A stretch of 20,000 nucleotides of DNA from an uncultured virus (IMG/VR IMGVR_UViG_3300028646_000003) (lineage: Duplodnaviria > Heunggongvirae > Uroviricota > Caudoviricetes): the IMG/VR virus record IMGVR_UViG_3300028646_000003, positions 110,086 through 130,085 of that record, one strand, 5' to 3'. The position numbers were made by a program, and so were the translations under genes. Of the stretch, positions 2,169-16,186 are shown piece by piece (positions within the stretch are counted from its first letter, which is position 1; each line of letters starts with the position of its first letter). The notes beneath the pieces are model-generated. The model was not told where the DNA came from, searched no databases, and saw only the letters and a list, made by a program, of their open reading frames with translations.

Positions 2169-3752
2169 TTATCTTTTAATATTTCTTCTAGCATAATTTA
2201 ATAATGCAGAACTTGAATTTTCATACTTATAGTTTGTATTTGCGTTTAAATCAGTAGAAACTTCTACTTCTTTTTCACTTGTTTCAACTTCTGCTTTTTC
2301 TTCTTTAGTAGTTATTTCTACTTTTGAAGCTTGTTCAACAACTCTTTCAGCTATTAGACATTTAATTTGTTTTTCGTCTAAATTTGAAATTGCTTCTTTA
2401 ATTGCTTCTGAATTCTCAATATCTTCTTCTGTAAAATATTTACTAGATAAAGCCATTTTCTTTAAGTTTTCTTTTTTTTCTGCAATTTCGGCTTCTAATT
2501 TCTTTGCATCAGCTTCAGCCTTTTCAATTCTAAGTGGTTCTAATTCAGCTATAGCCTTTTCTTTTTCTGCAATAGTTTCTTGTTGACTTGTAATTGTCTC
2601 ACCAAGTTTCACAATTTCATCTATTTTTGTAGAAAGTTCCTCGTTCTTAGTTGATAATTCATCATTAACACCATTTAATTGTGCTTGAATTTCTTGAATT
2701 TGTTCATCAATTTGAACTGATGGAACAAAAGTCATTTTAACTGGTGTTTGGCTTGTAATAGATATACTTTCATCTGAATTAACAGTGTAAGCATATTCTA
2801 TAAAGTCATCTTCGCTCTCTGCATTCCAATCATACCCTACTGCTCTAAATTCATACGGATATACTCTTGATATGCAAATCCATTTGTTTGTGTCTATTGA
2901 ATTAATAGCAACTCTTAATTTATCATATAAATCATTTGTTGTTATAGATGACACTTCTGTTTTGTTTTTATTTTCTGCCATATCGACAATTCCTCCTTTT
3001 TCTTCTATGTTTTCGTTTAATTTATTTTCAACTGATTTTTCATCAGACTGAATGCTTGTTTCTATGTTTTCTTGGTTCTCTGATATTTGTTCAAAACTAT
3101 TGATTTCACTTAAATCGTTTATAAATGCTTCTGCAAATTCGTCTTCTTGTTGTGTTTCTTCGGCAACTTCTAACATACCACTACAATCATATGCAGGACT
3201 TGTATATTTAGAAAGCAACGCATGTCCTATAAAAATACCATCGTTAATAACTTTAACTTGTTTTCCACCTATTGCATTTATATTACTATTTACAATTGAT
3301 ATTTCCCAAGATGTATTTAATGGTTCATCACTATCAAATCTATCTTGTATTATTTTGCAACAATTTTCAAACCTACGCCAAACTCTACAATTAGCTGTAA
3401 TATATTCTACCTCATCAATAGTTTCAATTTGAACAGTATCAAATACTCCAAAGGCATCAGTTCCAAACTTTAATTTTTCTTGAAGTTGTCCATTAATTAA
3501 CTCATAAACTTTTTTTGCTTGATGTGAAGTAAAATCCAACTCATCATCCTTATTTGGTTTTATTAATCCAACTAGTGGCTTCATTACTAAAGTATTTAAC
3601 CAATTTTCTATAGTATCTCTATTTAACATTACATTATTTCTATTGGGATCAAAATTACATATAATGAATTTTACATTCATATATGAATCATCTTGAGATT
3701 CTGATATTTCTATTTTGTTATTACTATATAAAATTATTTTATCTTCGTCCAA
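2169..3752 (-). CDS. Prohead protease / scaffold fusion protein
   Basis: 527 aa, TTG start with AAGGTGGTGA RBS. N-terminal globular domain (NRNNV..., TSHQ, TSWEI, FIGHALL) fits a phage maturation protease; C-terminus is an acidic E/K-rich coiled coil; follows portal. Confidence 0.7.
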   Translation of the reverse strand: MDEDKIILYSNNKIEISESQDDSYMNVKFIICNFDPNRNNVMLNRDTIENWLNTLVMKPLVGLIKPNKDDELDFTSHQAKKVYELINGQLQEKLKFGTDAFGVFDTVQIETIDEVEYITANCRVWRRFENCCKIIQDRFDSDEPLNTSWEISIVNSNINAIGGKQVKVINDGIFIGHALLSKYTSPAYDCSGMLEVAEETQQEDEFAEAFINDLSEINSFEQISENQENIETSIQSDEKSVENKLNENIEEKGGIVDMAENKNKTEVSSITTNDLYDKLRVAINSIDTNKWICISRVYPYEFRAVGYDWNAESEDDFIEYAYTVNSDESISITSQTPVKMTFVPSVQIDEQIQEIQAQLNGVNDELSTKNEELSTKIDEIVKLGETITSQQETIAEKEKAIAELEPLRIEKAEADAKKLEAEIAEKKENLKKMALSSKYFTEEDIENSEAIKEAISNLDEKQIKCLIAERVVEQASKVEITTKEEKAEVETSEKEVEVSTDLNANTNYKYENSSSALLNYARRNIKR

Positions 3753-5547: not shown

Positions 5548-7442
5548 TTATATAGAATTGAAATTTACTGATGAAACAAATGTTGGTGCTGTTGACCAAT
5601 CAACTTGTGGTGCTTGCTTATTAACTATTCCGTCACGTCTAAGGTTTTTTAAATGCCAAGCTAACATTACCATTGTGTAAGCTCTATCATCATGCATTTT
5701 ACTCTTTTTATCAGGAGGCAGTTCATATTTATAATTTATATCATCACCTTGTCTTCTTATTGCAATTAATTCTTCTTTTGCGTTATCAATTTGCTTTAAT
5801 GCCAATTCTTCGTCCCAAGATAGATTGTATTGTTTATAATCTATTGATTTTACCTTTTTCTTTTCATTCGTATCCTCATCAATTTCTTCAATCTCTTTTC
5901 CTTCCTGTGGTAGACTTAAGTACCCTTTCATATCATAATTATCTGTAAATTCAATTAGTCCTAAATTTAATAATTCTACAAAATCATCATACATTTCTGT
6001 TTTATATTTTTTAGGTGATACTAATTTTAATTTTCCTACTGCATTCGGATAAGAATTTACATGTTCAGCACAGGCTTCTTTATCAATTAATCCCCTATGT
6101 TTATTTCCTTGTTCATCTTCCCAGTCGTCCATAAAATAATCTGCGATTATCGGACCACCACCTCCTGAACCAGCATCAACTAGTAAACAATCTATATTCT
6201 CATAATCAGCCTTGCCTTTTCCGTTATAATTTATTAGCATTTGTTTTATCTCTTTAATTTGTTCTGGCGTTCTCATTGGAGTTTTTTTCTTTTTCCCTAA
6301 ATCCACAAGACTTACACAGTTTTGAATTATTAATTTCCATCCAACTTGTTCATCATATATATATTCTCCTACTGATGTCGCTGAATTATCATAATCATGT
6401 GCTGGATCATATGAAATTGCAATGTGTCTTTTTATATTTCCTTCATTAATTAATAATGGTTTTCTAACTGATGAATTTTTCATAATTACTGCACGTTTTA
6501 TAGGTTGTTTATTTCCACCATCAGCATCAAAACGATTAAAATATTCTCGATTTGCTTTCTCTGAGTTTGACCTTATTTCATCATCAACTTTAGATTGTGA
6601 TAACAATGGTATATTTAATTTTTTACCTTTTAATGTAGCTCCTATTATAACCTCACAATTTAAGTCAGCTACAAAATGGTCTTTACTTCCTGCAAACATT
6701 AACTTTGCCCACTCTTTATATAATGTATAAAATGCAGAATCCGTACTACTAGCAGATGAACAAAACAATAATTGATTAGGAATATTCATCGGTATAGTTT
6801 CGGTGTTTATACCACCACCTAACTTAAACGACGAATCCTGTGTACAAAATGATTTTGTAACTGAAATATAGTTTTCACTTATGAAACCACTTTCATCATA
6901 CAAATTTAAATTTGATCTTTTCCCTCTAATATTATCTTCTTCCCCAGAAACAGTAGTAACTTGACTGTTGTTAAATAGCTTACATCTAAATCCTTGAGGA
7001 GAGTGAACAAATCCATCATGGTTAGCACTTGCAGAAACTTCTCCTAAAAATATATCTGTTAATCCACAAAAAGATTCTATTTGTTTTTTTGCTATTGACT
7101 CCATTTTAAGTTGTCAAAGAAAGGTATCTTGGCTTTGACTTGCGGTTAATGAAAGTATAAAGCTTTGAAAGTTTGGAAATAACATCATTTTTGTCATTAT
7201 AAATGGAGAACTTAAAGTTGATTTACTCAGCCTCCATTACGAGACATCAACCATAATGCAAATTGTTTGCTCCATGATTCTTGAAATGTATATTTTTGAT
7301 AATCCATAAGTTCAAGTCCCAACACTAATTCTGCGAACTTTACAGGATTTCTTCTTCCCCATACAAGTATTTCATTGTATTTTAAATAACCTTCTAACTT
7401 TTTTTGAGTCAAATTACCTTTATTTATAATTGTGATACCCAT
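5548..7442 (-). CDS. terL: Terminase large subunit, interrupted twice by short TGA-led inserts (7225-7229 and 7108-7116); reconstructed about 626 aa
   Basis: Segment 1 (7442-7230) ends LMSRNGG. Segment 2 (7224-7117, different frame) reads KSTLSSPFIMTKMMLFPNFQSFILSLTASQSQDTFL. Segment 3 (7107-5548) reads KMESIAKK...IRGKRSNLNLYDESGF (Walker B)...YDPAHDYDNS...VDAGSGGGG...HDDRAY (nuclease). Joining restores Walker A SRNGGKST. Confidence 0.9.
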
Positions 7443-7493
7443 AATGAATTTAATTCACCTCCTTCTTATATCAATAAAGTTTGCTTAAACGCA

Positions 7494-7633: not shown

Positions 7634-9007
7634 TTATTCACTTATAACACTATTCAATATTTTTTGTTTTTCAATTTCTTTTTTATTTTTAATAACCTTA
7701 TCAATATGCTCCATAGTGTCAATAGGTACTATTTCCTCAACCATATTATTAAAACTTATTTGGTCTTCTTTATAATTCTGCTTTTGAATAGAGTCTTGTC
7801 CATCCTTTATGTCTCCGTAGTCCAAAACATCATAATAATCTGTTTCTAAAACATCTTGTTTATAATCTACATCATTGAAAGAGCAAATCGCCTTTAATTT
7901 TCTATTTTCTTCTCTTAATTTACTGTATTCTTGTTCATAAAAATTTATTTTTTCGTTTTGGAATTTTACCATATCTATTAAATCATCATCGCCAAAATTA
8001 AGATTTTCTACAATTGCTTTTGCGGATAATCTTGCTGTTTGTAACATACCATTAGAAGTCTGAATATCAAATAAATTAACTTGTGCTTCTTTTAAATCTA
8101 TTTCTTTTAACTTTTTAACCATGCCCGTTAATGTATTTGCACCGATTGTTTTATGACCACTATATAAATCACTAATCTTATTGTCTTTCGCTAAAGCCAA
8201 TAAACTTTTATTTAGTTTTTCTTTAGTGTCGGTTAAGCTTTTAATAGTTCCAATATTGTCTTTTATACTTTTTATATCAGAACTTAAATTTGTTATAACA
8301 TCATTTATTTTATTTTCTTGATTTTGACCTTTTATAATACTTATTATTGCACTATTTTTAAGCTCATCATTTTGACTATCTTCATCTAGCATATTTATCA
8401 ACTTGGCATACATTTTTGATTTATCTTCTTCTATTTCATTCTGAAAAGGATCATATCCGATTATTCTAATAATATCTTCTTTATTTTGTTTATCTCTTAC
8501 TCGTTGTTCAATTTCTTCGTCAGTAAACTCTTTAGGCTTAGATATAATTAAGCTATTTTCTTTTTCTTTGGTAGTATCATCCTCAACAATACTCATTCCT
8601 AAATCAATTTTATCTCCATGTTCAAAAGCATAACCTTTATAATTTTTAAGAGAATTTATTGTTTTTATGTATTTTTTCCATACTTCTAATCCATTTTGTA
8701 CTATAGTGAAATCTTTATTCCATCCTGCTTCTGTTAATGAACTATTGTATATTCCTTCGAGATATACAAAATCCAATAACTCACATATTTTATATATTGA
8801 TATTTTTATATCATTAGTTTCTTCTAAAAGTGATACATAAAAATTAGTTAAACAATCTTTACATAAAGATACTCTTCCAGTATAAGTATGTAATTTTGAA
8901 CTCGATGTGTAAAAATTATTTGTATTACTAAGTATTGTTCCACACTTAGTACATCTAGTTTTCCCTTTCATCTGCTCATCTAAATCTTTTGTCTTAAAAT
9001 CTGCCAT
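7634..9007 (-). CDS. Terminase small subunit-like protein with N-terminal Zn finger (probable)
   Basis: 457 aa with CTKC...CKDC at the N-terminus and a helical/coiled-coil body; immediately upstream of terL, as in SPbeta-like phages. Confidence 0.55.
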   Translation of the reverse strand: MADFKTKDLDEQMKGKTRCTKCGTILSNTNNFYTSSSKLHTYTGRVSLCKDCLTNFYVSLLEETNDIKISIYKICELLDFVYLEGIYNSSLTEAGWNKDFTIVQNGLEVWKKYIKTINSLKNYKGYAFEHGDKIDLGMSIVEDDTTKEKENSLIISKPKEFTDEEIEQRVRDKQNKEDIIRIIGYDPFQNEIEEDKSKMYAKLINMLDEDSQNDELKNSAIISIIKGQNQENKINDVITNLSSDIKSIKDNIGTIKSLTDTKEKLNKSLLALAKDNKISDLYSGHKTIGANTLTGMVKKLKEIDLKEAQVNLFDIQTSNGMLQTARLSAKAIVENLNFGDDDLIDMVKFQNEKINFYEQEYSKLREENRKLKAICSFNDVDYKQDVLETDYYDVLDYGDIKDGQDSIQKQNYKEDQISFNNMVEEIVPIDTMEHIDKVIKNKKEIEKQKILNSVISE

Positions 9008-9054: not shown

Positions 9055-10416
9055 TTAATTAGCAACTTCTAATTTTTTTAATATTTTATTACTTCTATAT
9101 TGTTCTTCTAACTGTTCGTCAAATGCTCCTTCAAAAAATCTAATTAAGAACTCATCAAACTGACTATGTGTATTTCTTCCATATCCATAATTTTGATGAA
9201 ATATTTTATGATATTCTTCTTTCATACATTTCCCTAATGGATACCTGTAATGAATTTCTGTACATTTACATATAATTTGTTTTATTTCCATATCTGTATA
9301 ATTACTTATAGTTTCATATATAGGTAATTTTAATTCTTCTAAAGTATCTCTAACTATATTATCAAAACTATATAAGTGATGAATATGATCAAACCTTTCC
9401 CCTGTAATAATACATTTGAAATTGCATTCTTTCATACTATCTAATTTCCATTGGTTAATATTTCTTCTTAATTCATTTTCTATATTACTAATTCCACCTT
9501 TATAATTAGGATTTAAACTACCAAATCTTGCAGAACCAAACATTGGATTATTTTCGCCTTTTGATTTTCCATTTTTAAGTCGAGTCTCACTTATTTTATT
9601 TCTCCATTCCTCAGTTTGTGCGTCATTTGTTGCTCTTAATTTACTTTCATCACTTTTATGTAAATTTAAACTATGAGCTTTATCCATAATTTGATTAATT
9701 GTTAAATGTGGGAAAAATTCATTCTTCATTTCATTATTGGTCATATCTGAATAATTATTTTGAATAATTATTACTTCTTCATCTTTCCATATGTATGAAT
9801 CAGATATTGCATAGTTCTCACCTTTACATTTTTTGCATACGTTTCTAAAACCATCACTACAAGTATTATCTTTTGGAAAATATAAAAATTCTAATGGTAA
9901 ATATTCATTACAGCACTTGCATAATTTGTATCTTTTGCCTTTAATGTCTTTATATTTTATTTTGTCATAATCTTCTACTACATTATTTATTTTATATAAT
10001 CCTAGTTTTTTACTCATATGTAATACAGATTTTTCAGTACGATTAACGCTAAGCAATGGAATTATCTCTTTGATTATTAATTTATTATAATTAGCTATAA
10101 TAATATCTTTATCCCTTTGACTCCATGTATCTTTCTCATTAGAACAATTTAAACACTTAGACAAATATCCATCTTTAGCTTTAGCATATAATCCAAATTC
10201 TGATACCTCTTTTTTAATATTACAACATTTGCAAACTTTATATCCATCTTTAGCATAGAACTTTTCTCTATATTTAATTTCTTGTTCTGTTTTTGCTTTA
10301 TTCCTACAAGCTTTACATGTATTTTCAAAACTTCCATTTTTGTTTTTATAAAAATTTTCCTCGTTTAATTCTTTTTCTTGTCCACATTTTTTACATTTTC
10401 TTATTTCCATAATCAA
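9055..10416 (-). CDS. Modular HNH (homing) endonuclease with Zn-finger repeats and NUMOD-like motifs
   Basis: Three CxxC...CxxC repeats, two W(S/K)xxxxxII-type repeats, TEEWRNKISETR/GENNPMFG/NPNYKGG motifs, C-terminal CIITG...HIHHLY...YHKIFHQNYG HNH-like core. Confidence 0.7.
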   Translation of the reverse strand: MIMEIRKCKKCGQEKELNEENFYKNKNGSFENTCKACRNKAKTEQEIKYREKFYAKDGYKVCKCCNIKKEVSEFGLYAKAKDGYLSKCLNCSNEKDTWSQRDKDIIIANYNKLIIKEIIPLLSVNRTEKSVLHMSKKLGLYKINNVVEDYDKIKYKDIKGKRYKLCKCCNEYLPLEFLYFPKDNTCSDGFRNVCKKCKGENYAISDSYIWKDEEVIIIQNNYSDMTNNEMKNEFFPHLTINQIMDKAHSLNLHKSDESKLRATNDAQTEEWRNKISETRLKNGKSKGENNPMFGSARFGSLNPNYKGGISNIENELRRNINQWKLDSMKECNFKCIITGERFDHIHHLYSFDNIVRDTLEELKLPIYETISNYTDMEIKQIICKCTEIHYRYPLGKCMKEEYHKIFHQNYGYGRNTHSQFDEFLIRFFEGAFDEQLEEQYRSNKILKKLEVAN

Positions 10417-10467: not shown

Positions 10468-11136
10468 CTATAAATAACTTTTAACTTTTTCATCATCAAT
10501 TTTTACTAAACCAAATAACTTCAAACTATCTAAATCTAGTTCTTTCCCTGAAGCATAATATTCTGGATTTATGTAAATAGCTTTTTTATGACCATATTGA
10601 ACTCTTTTTAACATATTTTTATCTTCCAAAGATTTTAAAGCAGTAATTATACTTCTTTCAGTTAATCCTATAATTGGTTCTAGTTCTTTAATAGTAGGAA
10701 TATGATCATTAATTACAATACAATTAGTAGGATACTGAATGAAATCTCTCATTATATAAAATACTAGCTTTTCATTTGTATTTAATTTCATATTCATCAC
10801 TCCCTCAATTTTATTCCTATAAACTATATTGAACTCACCGTTATCAAAATTCTCCCTTGCTTTACCACTCTTTTTCCTTTTAACTTTCTTCTTAGTTAAA
10901 CTTTGTTCATTCTCTATGCCAAATTCAGTATTAGACACATAATTAGCAGTAGCAAACATTTCTGTTTTATACTTTTCTAATTTAGTTTGTATTATTTTGT
11001 CATGCTCTGATTTTGTTATAAATTCACCAGTTTCAGACTGAATAAAACTACCACCTTGTATTTCTAAAAATTTACTATCTTCTTCAATTATAAAATATCT
11101 TATTAATTCACCTATATTATTGTTTTGCATCTTCAT
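10468..11136 (-). CDS. Winged-HTH protein, RepL/MarR-like C-terminal domain
   Basis: PTIKELEPIIGLTERSIITALKSLEDKNML...AIYINPEY resembles the firmicute RepL-type HTH; AAGGAGG RBS. Confidence 0.6.
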   Translation of the reverse strand: MKMQNNNIGELIRYFIIEEDSKFLEIQGGSFIQSETGEFITKSEHDKIIQTKLEKYKTEMFATANYVSNTEFGIENEQSLTKKKVKRKKSGKARENFDNGEFNIVYRNKIEGVMNMKLNTNEKLVFYIMRDFIQYPTNCIVINDHIPTIKELEPIIGLTERSIITALKSLEDKNMLKRVQYGHKKAIYINPEYYASGKELDLDSLKLFGLVKIDDEKVKSYL

Positions 11137-14286: not shown

Positions 14287-15522
14287 TTAATTGATTTGTA
14301 AATTTATATCTCTTATATATTCAACTCCATCATAGTTAACTAAAATTAGAGTTTGACTTGCATGTGTTGTACATTGAAGTTTGTCCACACTATATGGATT
14401 CATACCAAATAATGAACCTATAGTTGTTACGTACCCACCATTATTTTGTGAACTTACACCAAAATTATGATAATGTCCTCTTATTAACATAGCATACTTT
14501 ATATTATTCATACTTGTTTCTGTGTCATAGAATTTCTTATCTTCTTTAGGACTTTTATCACCATGTTTAACTTTTATAACTCCAAAACCTAAGTCAAACT
14601 CTCCACAATCTTCTTTAAAATCAATATCACAAACGTTGACTCTATCATTCTTAGCTAAAGTAAACCACTTCTTTAAATTCTTAACTATGGTATAATTGTT
14701 GTTATCTCCTTCAATATTTCCATCTTTATAAGCTTGGTTTCCACGCTGATGGTTTCCACCTACTGAATATAAGTCTACATTTACCTTCATTTCTGATATA
14801 CTTGTAATAAATCCATATAGCAATTCCTCAGCCATAACAATCTGTTCATTACTATTAAATTCACAACTATATGATTGATCTTGTCCACGCATATAAATTC
14901 CTTCAGTTAAATCTCCAGCTTGCACTACTATAACTTTAGATATATCATTTTTATGTATTTCTTTTTCTATTTCAGATAAGAATCTAGATAATCTCTTTTT
15001 AGCTATTTCATAATTATAACTATTTCCTCTATAATCCTTAATAATGTATCCTATATGCCAATCTGAAATGCAACAAATTAGTGTTTTTTCTGATTCATCT
15101 TCAATTCTTTTATAAGATAAAGGTAGAAAGTTTTCACATTCTCTATCAATATACTCATTTATGTAATTTGCAATTTCAATATTCTTTATAAAGTCTTTCT
15201 TTATTCTGTTAAGTTTATTAGTATCATTACGAATTAATTGCTTTTTAACATCTAACTCACCAATCAATTCAGTGACTTCGTCTATTTTATTTTTTACTGC
15301 TTTATCACCTTTTAAAGATTCCAAACATTCAGCACACGCAATTTCATAAATTTTATATATACCACGGAAATAACTCTCTTGGAAGTCAGTTCCAAGTTCT
15401 TGATTAATTACTTCTGCAATTTCTCTATTAATCATATTAAATTGTGTTTTGTTAGAATACATTCTATGTATATATTTTTCTCTTGACTCGATTTCCGATT
15501 TTAAATATCTTTCATCTTCCAT
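14287..15522 (-). CDS. Calcineurin-like metallophosphoesterase
   Basis: Motifs ISDWHIG, AGDLTEG, GGNH, KHGD, RGHYH; N-terminal coiled-coil extension. Confidence 0.85.
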   Translation of the reverse strand: MEDERYLKSEIESREKYIHRMYSNKTQFNMINREIAEVINQELGTDFQESYFRGIYKIYEIACAECLESLKGDKAVKNKIDEVTELIGELDVKKQLIRNDTNKLNRIKKDFIKNIEIANYINEYIDRECENFLPLSYKRIEDESEKTLICCISDWHIGYIIKDYRGNSYNYEIAKKRLSRFLSEIEKEIHKNDISKVIVVQAGDLTEGIYMRGQDQSYSCEFNSNEQIVMAEELLYGFITSISEMKVNVDLYSVGGNHQRGNQAYKDGNIEGDNNNYTIVKNLKKWFTLAKNDRVNVCDIDFKEDCGEFDLGFGVIKVKHGDKSPKEDKKFYDTETSMNNIKYAMLIRGHYHNFGVSSQNNGGYVTTIGSLFGMNPYSVDKLQCTTHASQTLILVNYDGVEYIRDINLQIN

Positions 15523-16096: not shown

Positions 16097-16186
16097 TGGA
16101 GGAGAGTGAGGGATTCTAACCCTCGATACGAATAAACGTATGCTGATTTAGCAAACCAGTGCATTCGGACACTCTGCCAACTCTCC
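16097..16186 (-). tRNA. tRNA-Ser(GCT), long variable arm, encoded CCA
   Basis: Acceptor GGAGAGT/ACTCTCC; anticodon arm CTGGT-TTGCTAA-ATCAG; variable arm ATACG-TTTATT-CGTAT; T arm GAGGG-TTAGAAT-CCCTC; 3' end TCCA. Confidence 0.92.

What the first reader, a model, noticed from the sequence alone, without database searches (positions are those of the whole stretch)
7105..7139. TerL site 2: perfect CTT-TGA-CAA-CTT take-off/stop/landing arrangement
The frame reads QSQDTF-L(CTT)-TGA-CAA-L(CTT)-KMESIAKK. Skipping 9 nt between identical CTT codons gives QDTFLKMESIAKK, a plausible continuous helix; the exact spacing needs a homolog alignment. A 7-bp stem GTCAAAG (7139-7133) / CTTTGAC (7119-7113) contains the take-off codon and stop. 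The same arrangement could also be a 3-bp target duplication around a 6-nt footprint TGACAA left by a mobile element.
Basis: partly seen in the sequence, partly recalled or inferred. Interest (0 to 1): 0.8.

Follow-up and report, generated by a model that had tools for sequence, protein, structure and literature searches.

The report
Tiny skipped inserts in phage terminase
A phage DNA-packaging gene is interrupted by a 9-base insert that carries a stop codon between two identical leucine codons, and comparison with many relatives suggests that ribosomes hop over such inserts, a very rare way of reading a gene.

Summary
On the minus strand the large-terminase (TerL) gene reads ...QDTF CTT TGA CAA CTT AAA ATG... 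(7119-7102). Uninterrupted homologues read QDTF[L/M/I]KME, so exactly 9 nt are extra. The same gene has a second, 5-nt insert inside the Walker A codons (GGC TGAGT AAA, 7232-7222). Both inserts recur unchanged in 7 other contigs and in contigs of further sequencing runs.

The decisive evidence is comparative. 27 of 48 distinct TerL sequences of this family carry 1-17-nt inserts at about 12 sites, all within the first 183 codons. In 14 of 17 curated events a stop codon (mostly TGA) directly follows the last aligned codon. In 12 of 17 the codon before resumption lies in the same codon box as that codon. Two neighbouring genes have no such inserts, and dN/dS is 0.03-0.12 downstream of the inserts.

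Best reading (about 0.6): short translational bypassing ("stop-hops") that yields full-length TerL. It resembles T4 gene 60 and the candidate bypass in the Streptomyces phage Hau3 terminase, but here the gaps are shorter, UGA-led and found across the family. No protein-level proof exists. The 7-bp stem is real but statistically weak.

The parts
7458..7462 (-). GGAGG Shine-Dalgarno-like sequence 15 nt upstream of the TerL start codon (ATG 7442-7440)
   Evidence: Read. No comparable purine-rich motif precedes ATG 7104 or the ATGs after site 1, which argues for one translation unit (inference from sequence).
7230..7442 (-). TerL piece A: codons 1-71 (MGITI...LMSRNGG), ending with take-off codon GGC 7232-7230. 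GGAGG lies at 7235-7231.
   Evidence: ORF 7227-7442. 80% identical to residues 1-71 of the full-length homologue P0004.
7225..7229 (-). Site 1: 5-nt insert TGAGT between the Gly and Lys codons of Walker A (NGG|KST). TGA is in frame directly after GGC.
   Evidence: Homologues read SRNGGKSTL. Relatives L061/L082 carry a 14-nt insert and L080 a 17-nt insert at the same junction, with Gly-Gly matched codons. Contigs of two other DNA runs and one RNA-library contig span the site with no gap.
7117..7224 (-). TerL piece B: codons 72-107 (KSTLSSPF...SQSQDTFL), ending with take-off codon CTT 7119-7117
7108..7116 (-). Site 2 (the finding): 9-nt in-frame insert TGA CAA CTT (equivalently CTT TGA CAA, 7119-7111). 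The landing codon is CTT 7110-7108.
   Evidence: Absent from all uninterrupted homologues. Present in 8 of 8 copies of this phage's TerL. X9 and X10 contigs span it without a gap, and a diverged co-occurring relative lacks exactly 9 nt.
7113..7139 (-). 7-bp stem GUCAAAG/CUUUGAC with a 13-nt loop. The 3' arm holds the take-off codon, the stop and the next C.
   Evidence: MFE -9 kcal/mol, z -1.68, 17 of 200 shuffles as good. Removing the insert from the surrounding segment changes its MFE from -9.0 to -3.2 kcal/mol.
5548..7107 (-). TerL piece C: codons 108-625 (KMESIAKK... to the stop), holding Walker B (LYDESG), SSAS and the C-terminal nuclease domain
   Evidence: ORF 5548-7104. 887 homologues. 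The Foldseek top hits of a homologue's model are large terminases.

Best explanation
The gene at 7442-5548 (minus strand) is one large-terminase (TerL) gene of a roughly 175-kb uncultivated phage. It carries two short non-coding inserts that ribosomes skip. At site 2, peptidyl-tRNA-Leu sits on CUU in the P site and UGA (context UGA-C) sits in the A site. Termination is slow, the tRNA uncouples, the mRNA slides 9 nt and the same tRNA re-pairs with the next CUU. Decoding then resumes at AAA and gives ...QDTFLKMES..., exactly as in homologues. At site 1 the ribosome must pass 5 nt (GGC UGAGU AAA) to restore the Walker A sequence NGGKST. Shown here: the inserts are real, they are absent from homologues, they recur in independent samples, and they belong to a family-wide class of inserts with the order take-off codon, stop, cognate landing codon, in a gene under strong purifying selection. 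Inferred: that ribosomes hop, how efficiently, and why. My preferred reason is that the inserts break the target sites of the inteins and introns that riddle this gene family, as proposed for T4 gene 60. They may also throttle TerL synthesis through RF2-dependent termination at UGA.
For: (1) Nine nt are extra. Homologues read QSQDTF[L/M/I]KME with F and K invariant.
(2) 27 of 48 distinct family TerL sequences have 1-17-nt frame-breaking or stop-bearing inserts at about 12 sites, and none lies beyond codon 190 of about 620.
(3) 14 of 17 curated events have a stop directly after the last aligned codon. 12 of 17 have a same-box landing codon. Among frame-breaking events only, the counts are 10 of 13 and 9 of 13.
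(4) A 63%-identical relative (L061/L082) is interrupted at the same two junctions by different inserts. L080 has a third version at site 1, GGA...GGA over 17 nt.
(5) In-frame analogues exist: CAG TGA CAA (aa48), CTT TGA TGA AAG CTT (aa182, tandem stops) and CGC TAG GTT AAC TAG CGT (L120, two stops in a 6-bp hairpin). Simple readthrough is unlikely for these.
(6) dN/dS is 0.03-0.12 in every segment. For lineages that share the aa182 insert, pS is 0.56-0.70 against pN 0.04-0.10 downstream of it.
(7) Two neighbouring genes in the same loci have no such inserts wherever they align well.
(8) Take-off codons are biased. All Leu take-offs use CTN (29% of Leu codons overall) and all Arg take-offs use CGN (19% overall). 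At aa30, 5 of 5 insert-bearing sequences have CGN against 6 of 43 without an insert.
(9) The inserts are not errors. There are 8 identical copies from different contigs, contigs of two further runs span both sites, and a 151-nt contig from an RNA library keeps the 5-nt insert.
(10) Precedents in print: T4 gene 60, synthetic stop-hops, and candidate bypass of 10-nt inserts in the Hau3 terminase (passages read).
Against: There is no protein or reporter evidence. Everything is comparative and from metagenomes.

At site 1 the landing codon AGU matches GGC only at positions 2-3. The same holds for three other events (CTT/ATT, CTG/GTA, CGA/AGT), while GAC/GTC matches only at positions 1 and 3. So a simple matched-codon rule does not cover all cases.

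Two bypasses in series would multiply inefficiencies.

The stem at site 2 is weak (z -1.68). Across 23 sites the inserts do not significantly add structure (mean z -0.99 against -0.66 with the insert removed, Wilcoxon p 0.19).

One relative (L018) adds a 4-nt deletion 31 nt after its insert, which a hop cannot rescue. This shows that at least some copies may be dead or misassembled.

Insert placements were curated among equal-scoring alignments, and events at one site in related lineages are not independent.

Synonymous sites are near saturation in several pairs, so dN/dS values are rough.

Recombination (mosaic pS) could move inserts between lineages and so shorten the time they have been under selection.
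Confidence: 0.6

Rival explanations
1. Inactivated gene. The phage copy is a decaying or defective element, and the two inserts are ordinary disabling mutations.
For: Two lesions lie in one essential gene. The record is an incomplete metagenomic virus contig (74% by CheckV). The relative L018 carries an extra 4-nt deletion that no hop can repair. About half of the family's gene calls are N-terminally truncated.
Against: Random lesions would not start with an in-frame stop in 14 of 17 events or end with a cognate codon in 12 of 17. They would not recur at identical junctions in lineages only 63% identical. They would not avoid the last 70% of the gene, nor spare the neighbouring genes. dN/dS of 0.03-0.12 downstream of shared inserts shows continued selection on the protein.
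Confidence: 0.15
2. Stop-codon readthrough at site 2 (UGA read by a near-cognate tRNA, adding three residues L-X-Q-L), combined with a +2 or -1 frameshift at site 1 that adds one or two residues.
For: The site 2 insert is in frame. UGA-C is recalled as a leaky context (not tested here). A phage tRNA-Ser(GCU) gene could read the AGU that follows UG at site 1.
Against: No homologue tolerates extra residues at either junction. Site 2 lies inside a predicted long helix (residues 99-121 of the model). Site 1 would put Ser between the Gly and Lys of the P-loop. Readthrough cannot explain the 14- and 17-nt inserts at the same site 1 junction, where the +2 frame hits TAA at once, nor the tandem stops at aa182 and in L120. 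It also gives no reason for identical flanking CTT codons.
Confidence: 0.12
3. Split gene. TerL is made as separate polypeptides by termination and re-initiation (for example at ATG 7104), and the pieces assemble.
For: Gene callers call a 518-aa ORF from ATG 7104 here and in relatives (P0002, P0007). The ATG lies 3 codons after the stop.
Against: No Shine-Dalgarno-like sequence precedes ATG 7104. The Met is Ile or Leu in many homologues. Site 1 cuts inside the P-loop (GG|KST), and a break there could hardly leave a working ATPase. Many inserts in relatives are not followed by any start codon.
Confidence: 0.05
4. The insert is a DNA-level footprint of a mobile element (3-bp duplication CTT around TGACAA) or a remnant of a degenerate intron. 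Its form reflects how it arose, not how it is decoded.
For: The family is full of mobile elements. There are LAGLIDADG inteins one codon from site 1, group I introns in L092, and other 263-446-nt inserts, one at exactly the aa182/183 junction. The short 4-5-nt inserts look like internal deletions of longer ones (TGA...GT, TAG...T). TGACAA also occurs at aa48 of L001.
Against: This view explains origin, not persistence, because the gene stays under purifying selection. Imperfect 'duplications' mostly differ at wobble positions. It is compatible with the best explanation rather than exclusive of it.
Confidence: 0.2
5. Sequencing or assembly artefact, or TGA reassigned as a sense codon (code 4 or 25).
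For: Low-GC metagenomic DNA. Only TerL is affected.
Against: The sequence is identical in 8 contigs and in contigs of further runs. TGA ends 13 of 114 ORFs of 100 aa or more in the phage record. Other genes are long and open under code 11. Reassignment cannot repair the 5-nt insert.
Confidence: 0.01

Closest known systems
Phage T4 gene 60 translational bypassing (50-nt coding gap)
   Same: A take-off codon is followed at once by a stop, and a matched landing codon lies directly before resumption. The insert is absent from homologues. The gene belongs to a family beset by homing endonucleases, and the insert is thought to protect against one (review passage; preprint passages). Some relatives here, such as L120 and L048 and the aa182 inserts, place take-off and landing codons at the base of a small gap hairpin.
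   Different: The gaps are 2-17 nt (9 nt here), not 50. The stop is UGA rather than UAG. There are many sites and variants in one gene family. No homology to the gene 60 cassette, no MobA/MobE gene and no identified nascent-peptide signal. Efficiency is unknown.
Streptomyces phage Hau3 (and two prophages) terminase: 7-10-nt frame-breaking inserts led by the rare UUA codon, candidate bypass (PMC10732093, passages read)
   Same: Short non-coding blocks in a large-terminase gene. Flanks abut in homologues and junctions are highly conserved. The first Hau3 insert follows ...KGWG and precedes K, a Gly|Lys junction like site 1 here (NGG|K). That this is the Hau3 P-loop is my inference.
   Different: The trigger there is a hungry sense codon (UUA, bldA tRNA) in a high-GC host. 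Here it is a stop codon, mostly UGA, in low-GC phages. There 3 of 100 terminase genes are affected, here 27 of 48 distinct sequences. It is a different terminase family (no detectable similarity was sought or found).
Synthetic 'stop-hops' in E. coli (Weiss et al. 1987; O'Connor et al. 1989, as described in PMC5009743 and the 2022 preprint)
   Same: [quoted passage not shown] CAG TGA CAA at aa48 of L001/L063/L067 has exactly the 9-nt-for-one-residue form.
   Different: Those were artificial, low-efficiency constructs. The 2016 review states that no natural in-frame stop-hop was known. Site 2 here uses 12 nt for one residue.
Mitochondrial bypass elements ('byps') of Magnusiomyces capitatus (mentioned in PMC5009743)
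   Same: Many short inserts are tolerated by translational correction, and a mobile origin is suspected.
   Different: Those are 81 elements spread over many mitochondrial genes. Here they are confined to the first 183 codons of one phage gene.
prfB (RF2) +1 programmed frameshift site CUU UGA C
   Same: The identical heptanucleotide CTT TGA C occurs at site 2, with tRNA-Leu on CUU facing a poorly terminated UGA.
   Different: There is no Shine-Dalgarno sequence 3 nt upstream. The +1 frame closes after 8 codons (read), so a +1 shift is unproductive here.

Membership tests
Large terminase subunit (TerL) | N-terminal ATPase with Walker A and Walker B, C-terminal RNase H-like nuclease, terminase fold | tested here: met
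   Motifs SRNGG|KST and LYDESG, plus conserved acidic residues in the C-terminal half, are invariant in alignments. The AlphaFold model of the 81%-identical homologue P0004 (mean pLDDT 57, C-terminal half 80-90) has large terminases as its top Foldseek hits: herpesvirus 6m5r E 2.5e-7, T4 gp17 3cpe, D6E, HK97, and the RB49 nuclease domain at TMt 0.64. Sources name homologues 'terminase'. Sequence profiles gave nothing (Pfam, PHROGs, NCBIfam, PDB).
Programmed translational bypassing | Block of nucleotides absent from homologues, with conserved protein sequence abutting on both sides | tested here: met
   9 nt at site 2 and 5 nt at site 1.
Programmed translational bypassing | Matched take-off and landing codons for one peptidyl-tRNA | tested here: met
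   CTT/CTT at site 2. Across the family, 12 of 17 events fall in the same codon box. Not met at site 1 of this window, where GGC/AGT matches at positions 2-3 only.
Programmed translational bypassing | Slow-to-decode A-site codon (a stop) directly 3' of the take-off codon | tested here: met
   TGA at both sites of the window. 14 of 17 events in the family.
Programmed translational bypassing | Stimulatory mRNA structure or nascent-peptide signal | tested here: inconclusive
   7-bp stem, z -1.68. No general gain of structure over 23 sites. Nascent-peptide effects cannot be tested with these tools.
Programmed translational bypassing | A single polypeptide spanning the gap is made | not testable with these tools
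   Only indirect evidence: dN/dS 0.03-0.12 downstream of the inserts, and no RBS for the downstream pieces.
Hau3-type UUA-triggered terminase bypass | Insert begins with the rare UUA codon, whose tRNA is developmentally limited | tested here: not met
   The inserts begin with TGA (TAG or TAA in a few). TTA is the commonest Leu codon in this family, 1374 of 2458 Leu codons.
prfB-type +1 frameshifting | A +1 shift at CUU UGA C opens the productive frame, stimulated by a Shine-Dalgarno sequence 3 nt upstream | tested here: not met
   The +1 frame reads 8 codons and stops. No SD lies upstream.
Stop-codon reassignment (TGA as sense) | TGA frequent inside genes and not used as a terminator | tested here: not met
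   TGA terminates 13 of 114 long ORFs of the record. Other window genes are open under code 11.

The most novel reading that the evidence does not exclude
A whole family of large Firmicute-type phages and prophages makes its terminase by natural short-range ribosome hops of 2-17 nt over UGA-led mini-gaps. Site 2 of this window would be the first natural in-frame 'stop-hop'. The mini-gaps would be kept because they destroy the recognition sites of the inteins and introns that home into the same conserved codons (P-loop and others). Because they depend on slow RF2 termination at UGA, they would also tie terminase output to the translational state of the host.
Probability: 0.3. Interest if true: 0.92.

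Novelty: new variant of a known kind. Interest (0 to 1): 0.85.

Why it matters
Known uses of translational bypassing are very few: T4 gene 60 and its homologues, one yeast mitochondrial lineage, and a candidate in three Streptomyces phage or prophage terminase genes. The 2016 reference review says no natural in-frame stop-hop is known.

Here a single gene family offers about 12 sites and more than 20 sequence variants, with gaps of 2 to 17 nt, matched and partly matched landing codons, and with or without hairpins. That is a natural mutational series for working out what a minimal bypass signal needs, and it is directly testable with reporters and mass spectrometry.

It also has a practical side. 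Gene callers and public annotations truncate or split these terminases, and such phages may be wrongly scored as defective.

If the inserts protect against homing endonucleases, this would be a second, independent case of the gene 60 logic. That would suggest a general evolutionary route from selfish-element conflict to recoding.

Tried and rejected
- Sequence-profile naming of the gene failed. Pfam, PHROGs, NCBIfam and a PDB sequence profile gave no terminase hit.
- blastn against cultured phages found nothing. tblastn found only 24-27% identical Bacillus-phage terminases, so no cultured close relative is at hand.
- The first genome-contig scan with a single protein found nothing. The alignment-based scan worked.
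- One search failed on a frame slip and was corrected.
- My first, global version of the protein-to-DNA aligner produced spurious 'inserts' in the first ~10 residues and in diverged C-terminal tails. The local version was used for counts. Events within 8 residues of the alignment start or 25 of its end, all events of L036, and loci scoring below 1400 were dropped before counting. This removes, for example, two C-terminal events of L083.
- Rfam recognised only L092's two long inserts as group I introns. The 263-446-nt inserts of other relatives got no match even at E up to 1.
- The idea that inserts generally create RNA structure was not supported.
- Reading TGA as a sense codon, a +1 shift at CTT TGA C, and re-initiation at ATG 7104 were considered and rejected (see rivals).
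- Earlier findings of this scan: nothing on record.
- RNA runs held only small shares of the stretch. Apart from one 151-nt contig over site 1 (X22) and one from a library that is probably DNA (X19), they gave no cover of the sites. No RNA contig covered site 2, so nothing can be said about transcripts there.
Three further viral scans mostly returned contigs already held, plus one new event, L120.
Full report
**What is there.** All long ORFs of the window lie on the minus strand, and GC is about 27-28%. Around the finding the minus strand reads ...AGT CAA AGC CAA GAT ACC TTT CTT TGA CAA CTT AAA ATG GAG TCA..., with CTT at 7119-7117, TGA at 7116-7114 and the second CTT at 7110-7108. The ATG at 7104 opens a 518-aa ORF that runs to 5548.

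Upstream lies a 71-aa ORF (7442-7227) that ends ...LMSRNGG-TGA. Between the two, in a third frame, lies KSTLSSPF...SQSQDTFL. The gene is therefore in three pieces. It is cut by 5 nt inside a Walker A motif (GGC TGAGT AAA, 7232-7222) and by the in-frame stop of the finding.

It is not clearly better than chance, with z -1.68 and 17 of 200 shuffles as good.

**What the gene is.** Pfam, PHROGs, NCBIfam and a PDB sequence profile give no hit. The big protein search finds 887 homologues, several named 'terminase' in Bacillus, Brevibacillus, Metabacillus and Paenibacillus.

Full-length members have about 610-636 aa and share invariant Walker A (RNGGKST), Walker B (LYDESG) and C-terminal acidic motifs. 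A model of the 81%-identical homologue P0004 has low overall confidence (pLDDT 57, but 80-90 in the C-terminal half). Its Foldseek top hits are all large terminases: herpesvirus 6m5r, T4 gp17, D6E, HK97, and the RB49 nuclease domain at TMt 0.64.

The window is the last 20 kb of a 130,085-bp virus record rated 74% complete. No cultured phage is closer than 27% identity.

Homologues read ...SQSQDTF[L/M/I]KME[S/A/K]IAK... and ...SRN[G/A]GKSTL.... So exactly 9 nt are extra at site 2 and 5 nt at site 1. In the alignment F and K at site 2 are invariant. No family member aligned has extra residues at either place.

**The inserts are real DNA.** Seven other contigs carry the identical TerL with both inserts. 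At least one pair of them is the same contig held in two collections. Eighteen runs hold at least half of the stretch's sampled words.

Contigs of two runs not marked as the possible source span both sites with no gap. A diverged co-occurring contig (24 differences in 189 nt) lacks exactly the 9 nt. A 151-nt contig from a metatranscriptome library (3 differences) keeps the 5-nt insert, although such a library can contain DNA.

**The family-wide pattern.** I aligned the reference protein P0004 to 111 fetched loci plus the window with a frameshift- and gap-aware dynamic programme of my own. Thirteen later loci were added.

Of 48 distinct TerL sequences (score at least 1400), 27 carry at least one insert that breaks the frame or brings an in-frame stop. 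One of these is a lone 1-nt insert that may be an error. None lies beyond codon 190 of about 620.

The catalogue, written as take-off codon, [insert], next codon:
- aa30: CGA[ACGA]AAT; CGA[TAGT]AAA; CGA[TAGC]AAA; CGT[TAGC]AAG; CGC[TAGGTTAACTAGCGT]AGA
- aa34: CGA[ACGA]TTC
- aa40: CTT[TGAACTA]GGA; CTG[TGAGCTA]GGA; CTG[TGACCTA]GGA
- aa43: GAA[TGAG]TTA; GAG[TGAA]TTC
- aa45: CTT[TGATT]GAC
- aa47: GAC[TGAGTC]TAC
- aa48: CAG[TGACAA]AAG
- aa51: TAC[TGAGCTCTTAA]GTT
- aa71: GGC[TGAGT]AAA (this window); GGC[TGACATAATACGGT]AAA; GGA[TGACTTAATGTTAAGGA]AAA
- aa79: GTG to GTA, +2, over TAA
- aa107: CTT[TGACAACTT]AAA (this window); CTG[CGGTA]AAG
- aa182: CTT[TGATGAAAGCTT]TCT and two variants

A relative only 63% identical (L061/L082) is thus cut at the same two junctions as the window, by different inserts.

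Counting 17 events that I take as distinct, 14 have a stop directly after the take-off codon (null 0.09) and 12 have the landing codon in the same codon box (null 0.08). One of the 12 is TAC/TAA. Restricted to the 13 frame-breaking events, which were not selected for containing a stop, the counts are 10 and 9, with binomial p about 8e-9 and 7e-8.

Where the two codons differ they differ at the wobble base (GAA/GAG, CTG/CTA, CTT/CTA, CAG/CAA, GGC/GGT, GTG/GTA, CGC/CGT).

Take-off codons are also unusual for these AT-rich genes. Every Leu take-off is CTN (29% of Leu codons overall) and every Arg take-off is CGN (19% overall). At aa30, 5 of 5 insert-bearing sequences have CGN against 6 of 43 without an insert.

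Caveats apply. I chose placements among equal-scoring alignments, and events at one site in related lineages may share ancestry.

**Selection and controls.**
- Pairwise Nei-Gojobori dN/dS for TerL is 0.03-0.12 among the closer lineages, in every segment including those downstream of inserts.
- Among the lineages that share the aa182 insert (L001, L020, L021, L061, L067), synonymous differences are near saturation (pS 0.56-0.70). Non-synonymous ones stay at 0.04-0.10 in codons 183-620. The reading frame beyond an in-frame (often tandem) stop has therefore been kept for a long time.
- More distant pairs give 0.18-0.33, at saturated pS.
- The same aligner was run with the window's 582-aa downstream and 457-aa upstream neighbours on the 48 distinct loci. 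It finds no frame-breaking or stop-bearing insert wherever these genes align well: L001, L025, L027, L029, L061 and L063 for the first; L001, L020, L021, L027, L035, L061, L063, L067 and L082 for the second.
- The phenomenon is thus specific to the first third of TerL and is not general decay or error.

**Mechanism.** The simplest account of all this is translational bypassing over very short gaps. Peptidyl-tRNA waits on a four-box or two-box codon with a poorly terminated stop in the A site. It then uncouples, the mRNA slides, and the tRNA re-pairs with a cognate codon directly before the resumed frame.

Site 2 of the window is the in-frame version of this, with 12 nt giving one Leu. Site 1 needs a 5-nt move to a codon (AGU) that matches only at positions 2-3. 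That minimal pairing can suffice for landing is something I recall from work on gene 60 and did not check here.

The 4-5-nt inserts look like internal deletions of longer ones. TGA...GT at aa71 compares with the 14-nt form, and TAG...T at aa30 with the 15-nt form.

Some gaps fold so that the take-off and landing codons sit at the base of a small hairpin. Examples are L120 (CGCUAG/CUAGCG), L048, and aa182 (CUUU/AAAG with U-A to U-G changes). Over 23 sites, however, the inserts do not significantly raise predicted structure. The role of the site 2 stem therefore remains an inference.

A preprint, of which I saw only the listing abstract, argues that pairing of mRNA leaving the ribosome drives forward bypassing in gene 60.

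**Why the inserts might be there.**
- Relatives carry in-frame LAGLIDADG inteins between Lys72 and Ser73 of the P-loop, one codon from site 1 (PF14528 on long homologues).
- L092 has group I introns at aa37 and aa96 (76.6 and 47.6 bits).
- Unclassified 263-446-nt inserts lie at aa169-171, aa183 and aa342. The one at aa183 sits at the very junction of the aa182 mini-insert.
- The review read states that the gene 60 insert may protect against the nuclease of its associated homing element.

By analogy I propose that the mini-inserts immunise TerL alleles against intein or intron homing. The co-location is suggestive only: three of five long-insert sites fall within two codons of a mini-insert site, and that is not significant by my rough estimate. 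A throttle on TerL synthesis linked to RF2 is an alternative or additional role. Both are inferences.

**Comparison with what is known.** Passages of PMC10732093 describe two 10-nt and one 7-nt UUA-led inserts in 3 of 100 Streptomyces phage or prophage terminase genes, with MS and mutational support for bypass at one site in E. coli.

Passages of PMC5009743 describe synthetic stop-hops and say that no natural in-frame case is known. Passages of the 2022 preprint extend gene 60-type cassettes to dozens of homologues, one with a 20-nt gap.

Six full-text searches found nothing on short UGA-led inserts in terminases of low-GC phages. Supplements of these papers were not opened. Subscription-only papers are outside the library.

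I therefore rate this a new variant of a known kind. It works like bypassing, and it meets the sequence-level criteria. The product-level criterion is untested.

**What speaks against.**
- There is no protein evidence.
- Two bypasses in series would be costly.
- Five of 17 events lack a same-box landing codon and three lack the adjacent stop.
- L018 has an additional 4-nt deletion that only a readthrough-plus-garbled-segment product could tolerate.
- About half of the 120 best protein hits are N-terminally truncated calls, with starts clustering at MDYQKY, MNSW, M..PF/MTK, ME.IAK and MKRSN. This fits interruptions but could also reflect contig ends.

**Verdict.** I put the probability that site 2 is hopped over to give functional TerL at about 0.6.

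Noticed in passing
window 16097-16186 (-): A tRNA-Ser(GCU) gene is the only tRNA in the 130-kb record. AGU or AGC is the triplet that directly follows the stop-derived bases in the shortest inserts (site 1 here: UG-AGU; L002, L005, L062: U-AGU or U-AGC). A role of this tRNA in out-of-frame decoding is conceivable.
   Followed up: partly
window 9055-10416 (-): A 453-aa Cys-rich protein matches PHROGs annotated as endonuclease VII and HNH endonuclease (E 1e-13 to 1e-10), two genes upstream of TerL. It may be a terminase-associated or a homing nuclease.
   Followed up: no
L003, L036/L084, L037, L046/L071, L054/L055/L091, L090 at TerL aa72: In-frame inteins (144 to 374 aa) begin with Ala, end with His-Asn and are followed by Ser. 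They sit between Lys and Ser of the P-loop. The long ones carry a LAGLIDADG-type domain (PF14528 on long homologues).
   Followed up: partly
L027-L033/L078 (aa171, aa342); L035, L063, L082 (aa169); L111 (aa183, aa419); L114 (aa169, 1143 nt): Inserts of 263-1143 nt in TerL get no Rfam match even at E up to 1. They may be introns of a type the group I model misses. Gene calls starting MKRSNLN... show that the aa169 element is common.
   Followed up: partly
L018:2416-2460 compared with L019, L053, L066: L018 is identical to three other contigs except for a 4-nt deletion 31 nt after the GAA[TGAG] insert. The deletion restores the original frame but garbles 12 conserved residues. It may be a dead variant, an assembly error or an alternative rescue. 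Unexplained.
   Followed up: partly
L120:1180-1300 (TerL aa30): A 15-nt in-frame insert, CGC TAG GTT AAC TAG CGT, has two stops, matched Arg codons and a perfect 6-bp hairpin (CGCUAG/CUAGCG) that places the take-off and landing codons side by side. It is the most gene-60-like mini-gap seen.
   Followed up: partly
L001 compared with L061, TerL segments: Synonymous divergence differs about threefold between segments of the same gene pair (pS 0.50 in codons 1-70 against 0.17 in codons 183-620). This indicates recombination within TerL, which could move inserts between lineages.
   Followed up: no
protein clusters P0105, P0116 and others (named 'terminase' or 'hypothetical protein' by sources): Public annotations of Paenibacillus prophage terminases start downstream of the aa30 or P-loop interruptions (540-569 aa instead of about 620). 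The inserts therefore cause systematic mis-annotation.
   Followed up: partly
window 14287-15522 (-), 10468-11136 (-), 2169-3752 (-), 7634-9007 (-): Other phage genes in the window: an exonuclease (phrog_284, E 7e-65), a weak replication-initiator or DnaD-like match, and two conserved proteins of unknown function (phrog_3313, phrog_3314) that flank the TerL region.
   Followed up: no
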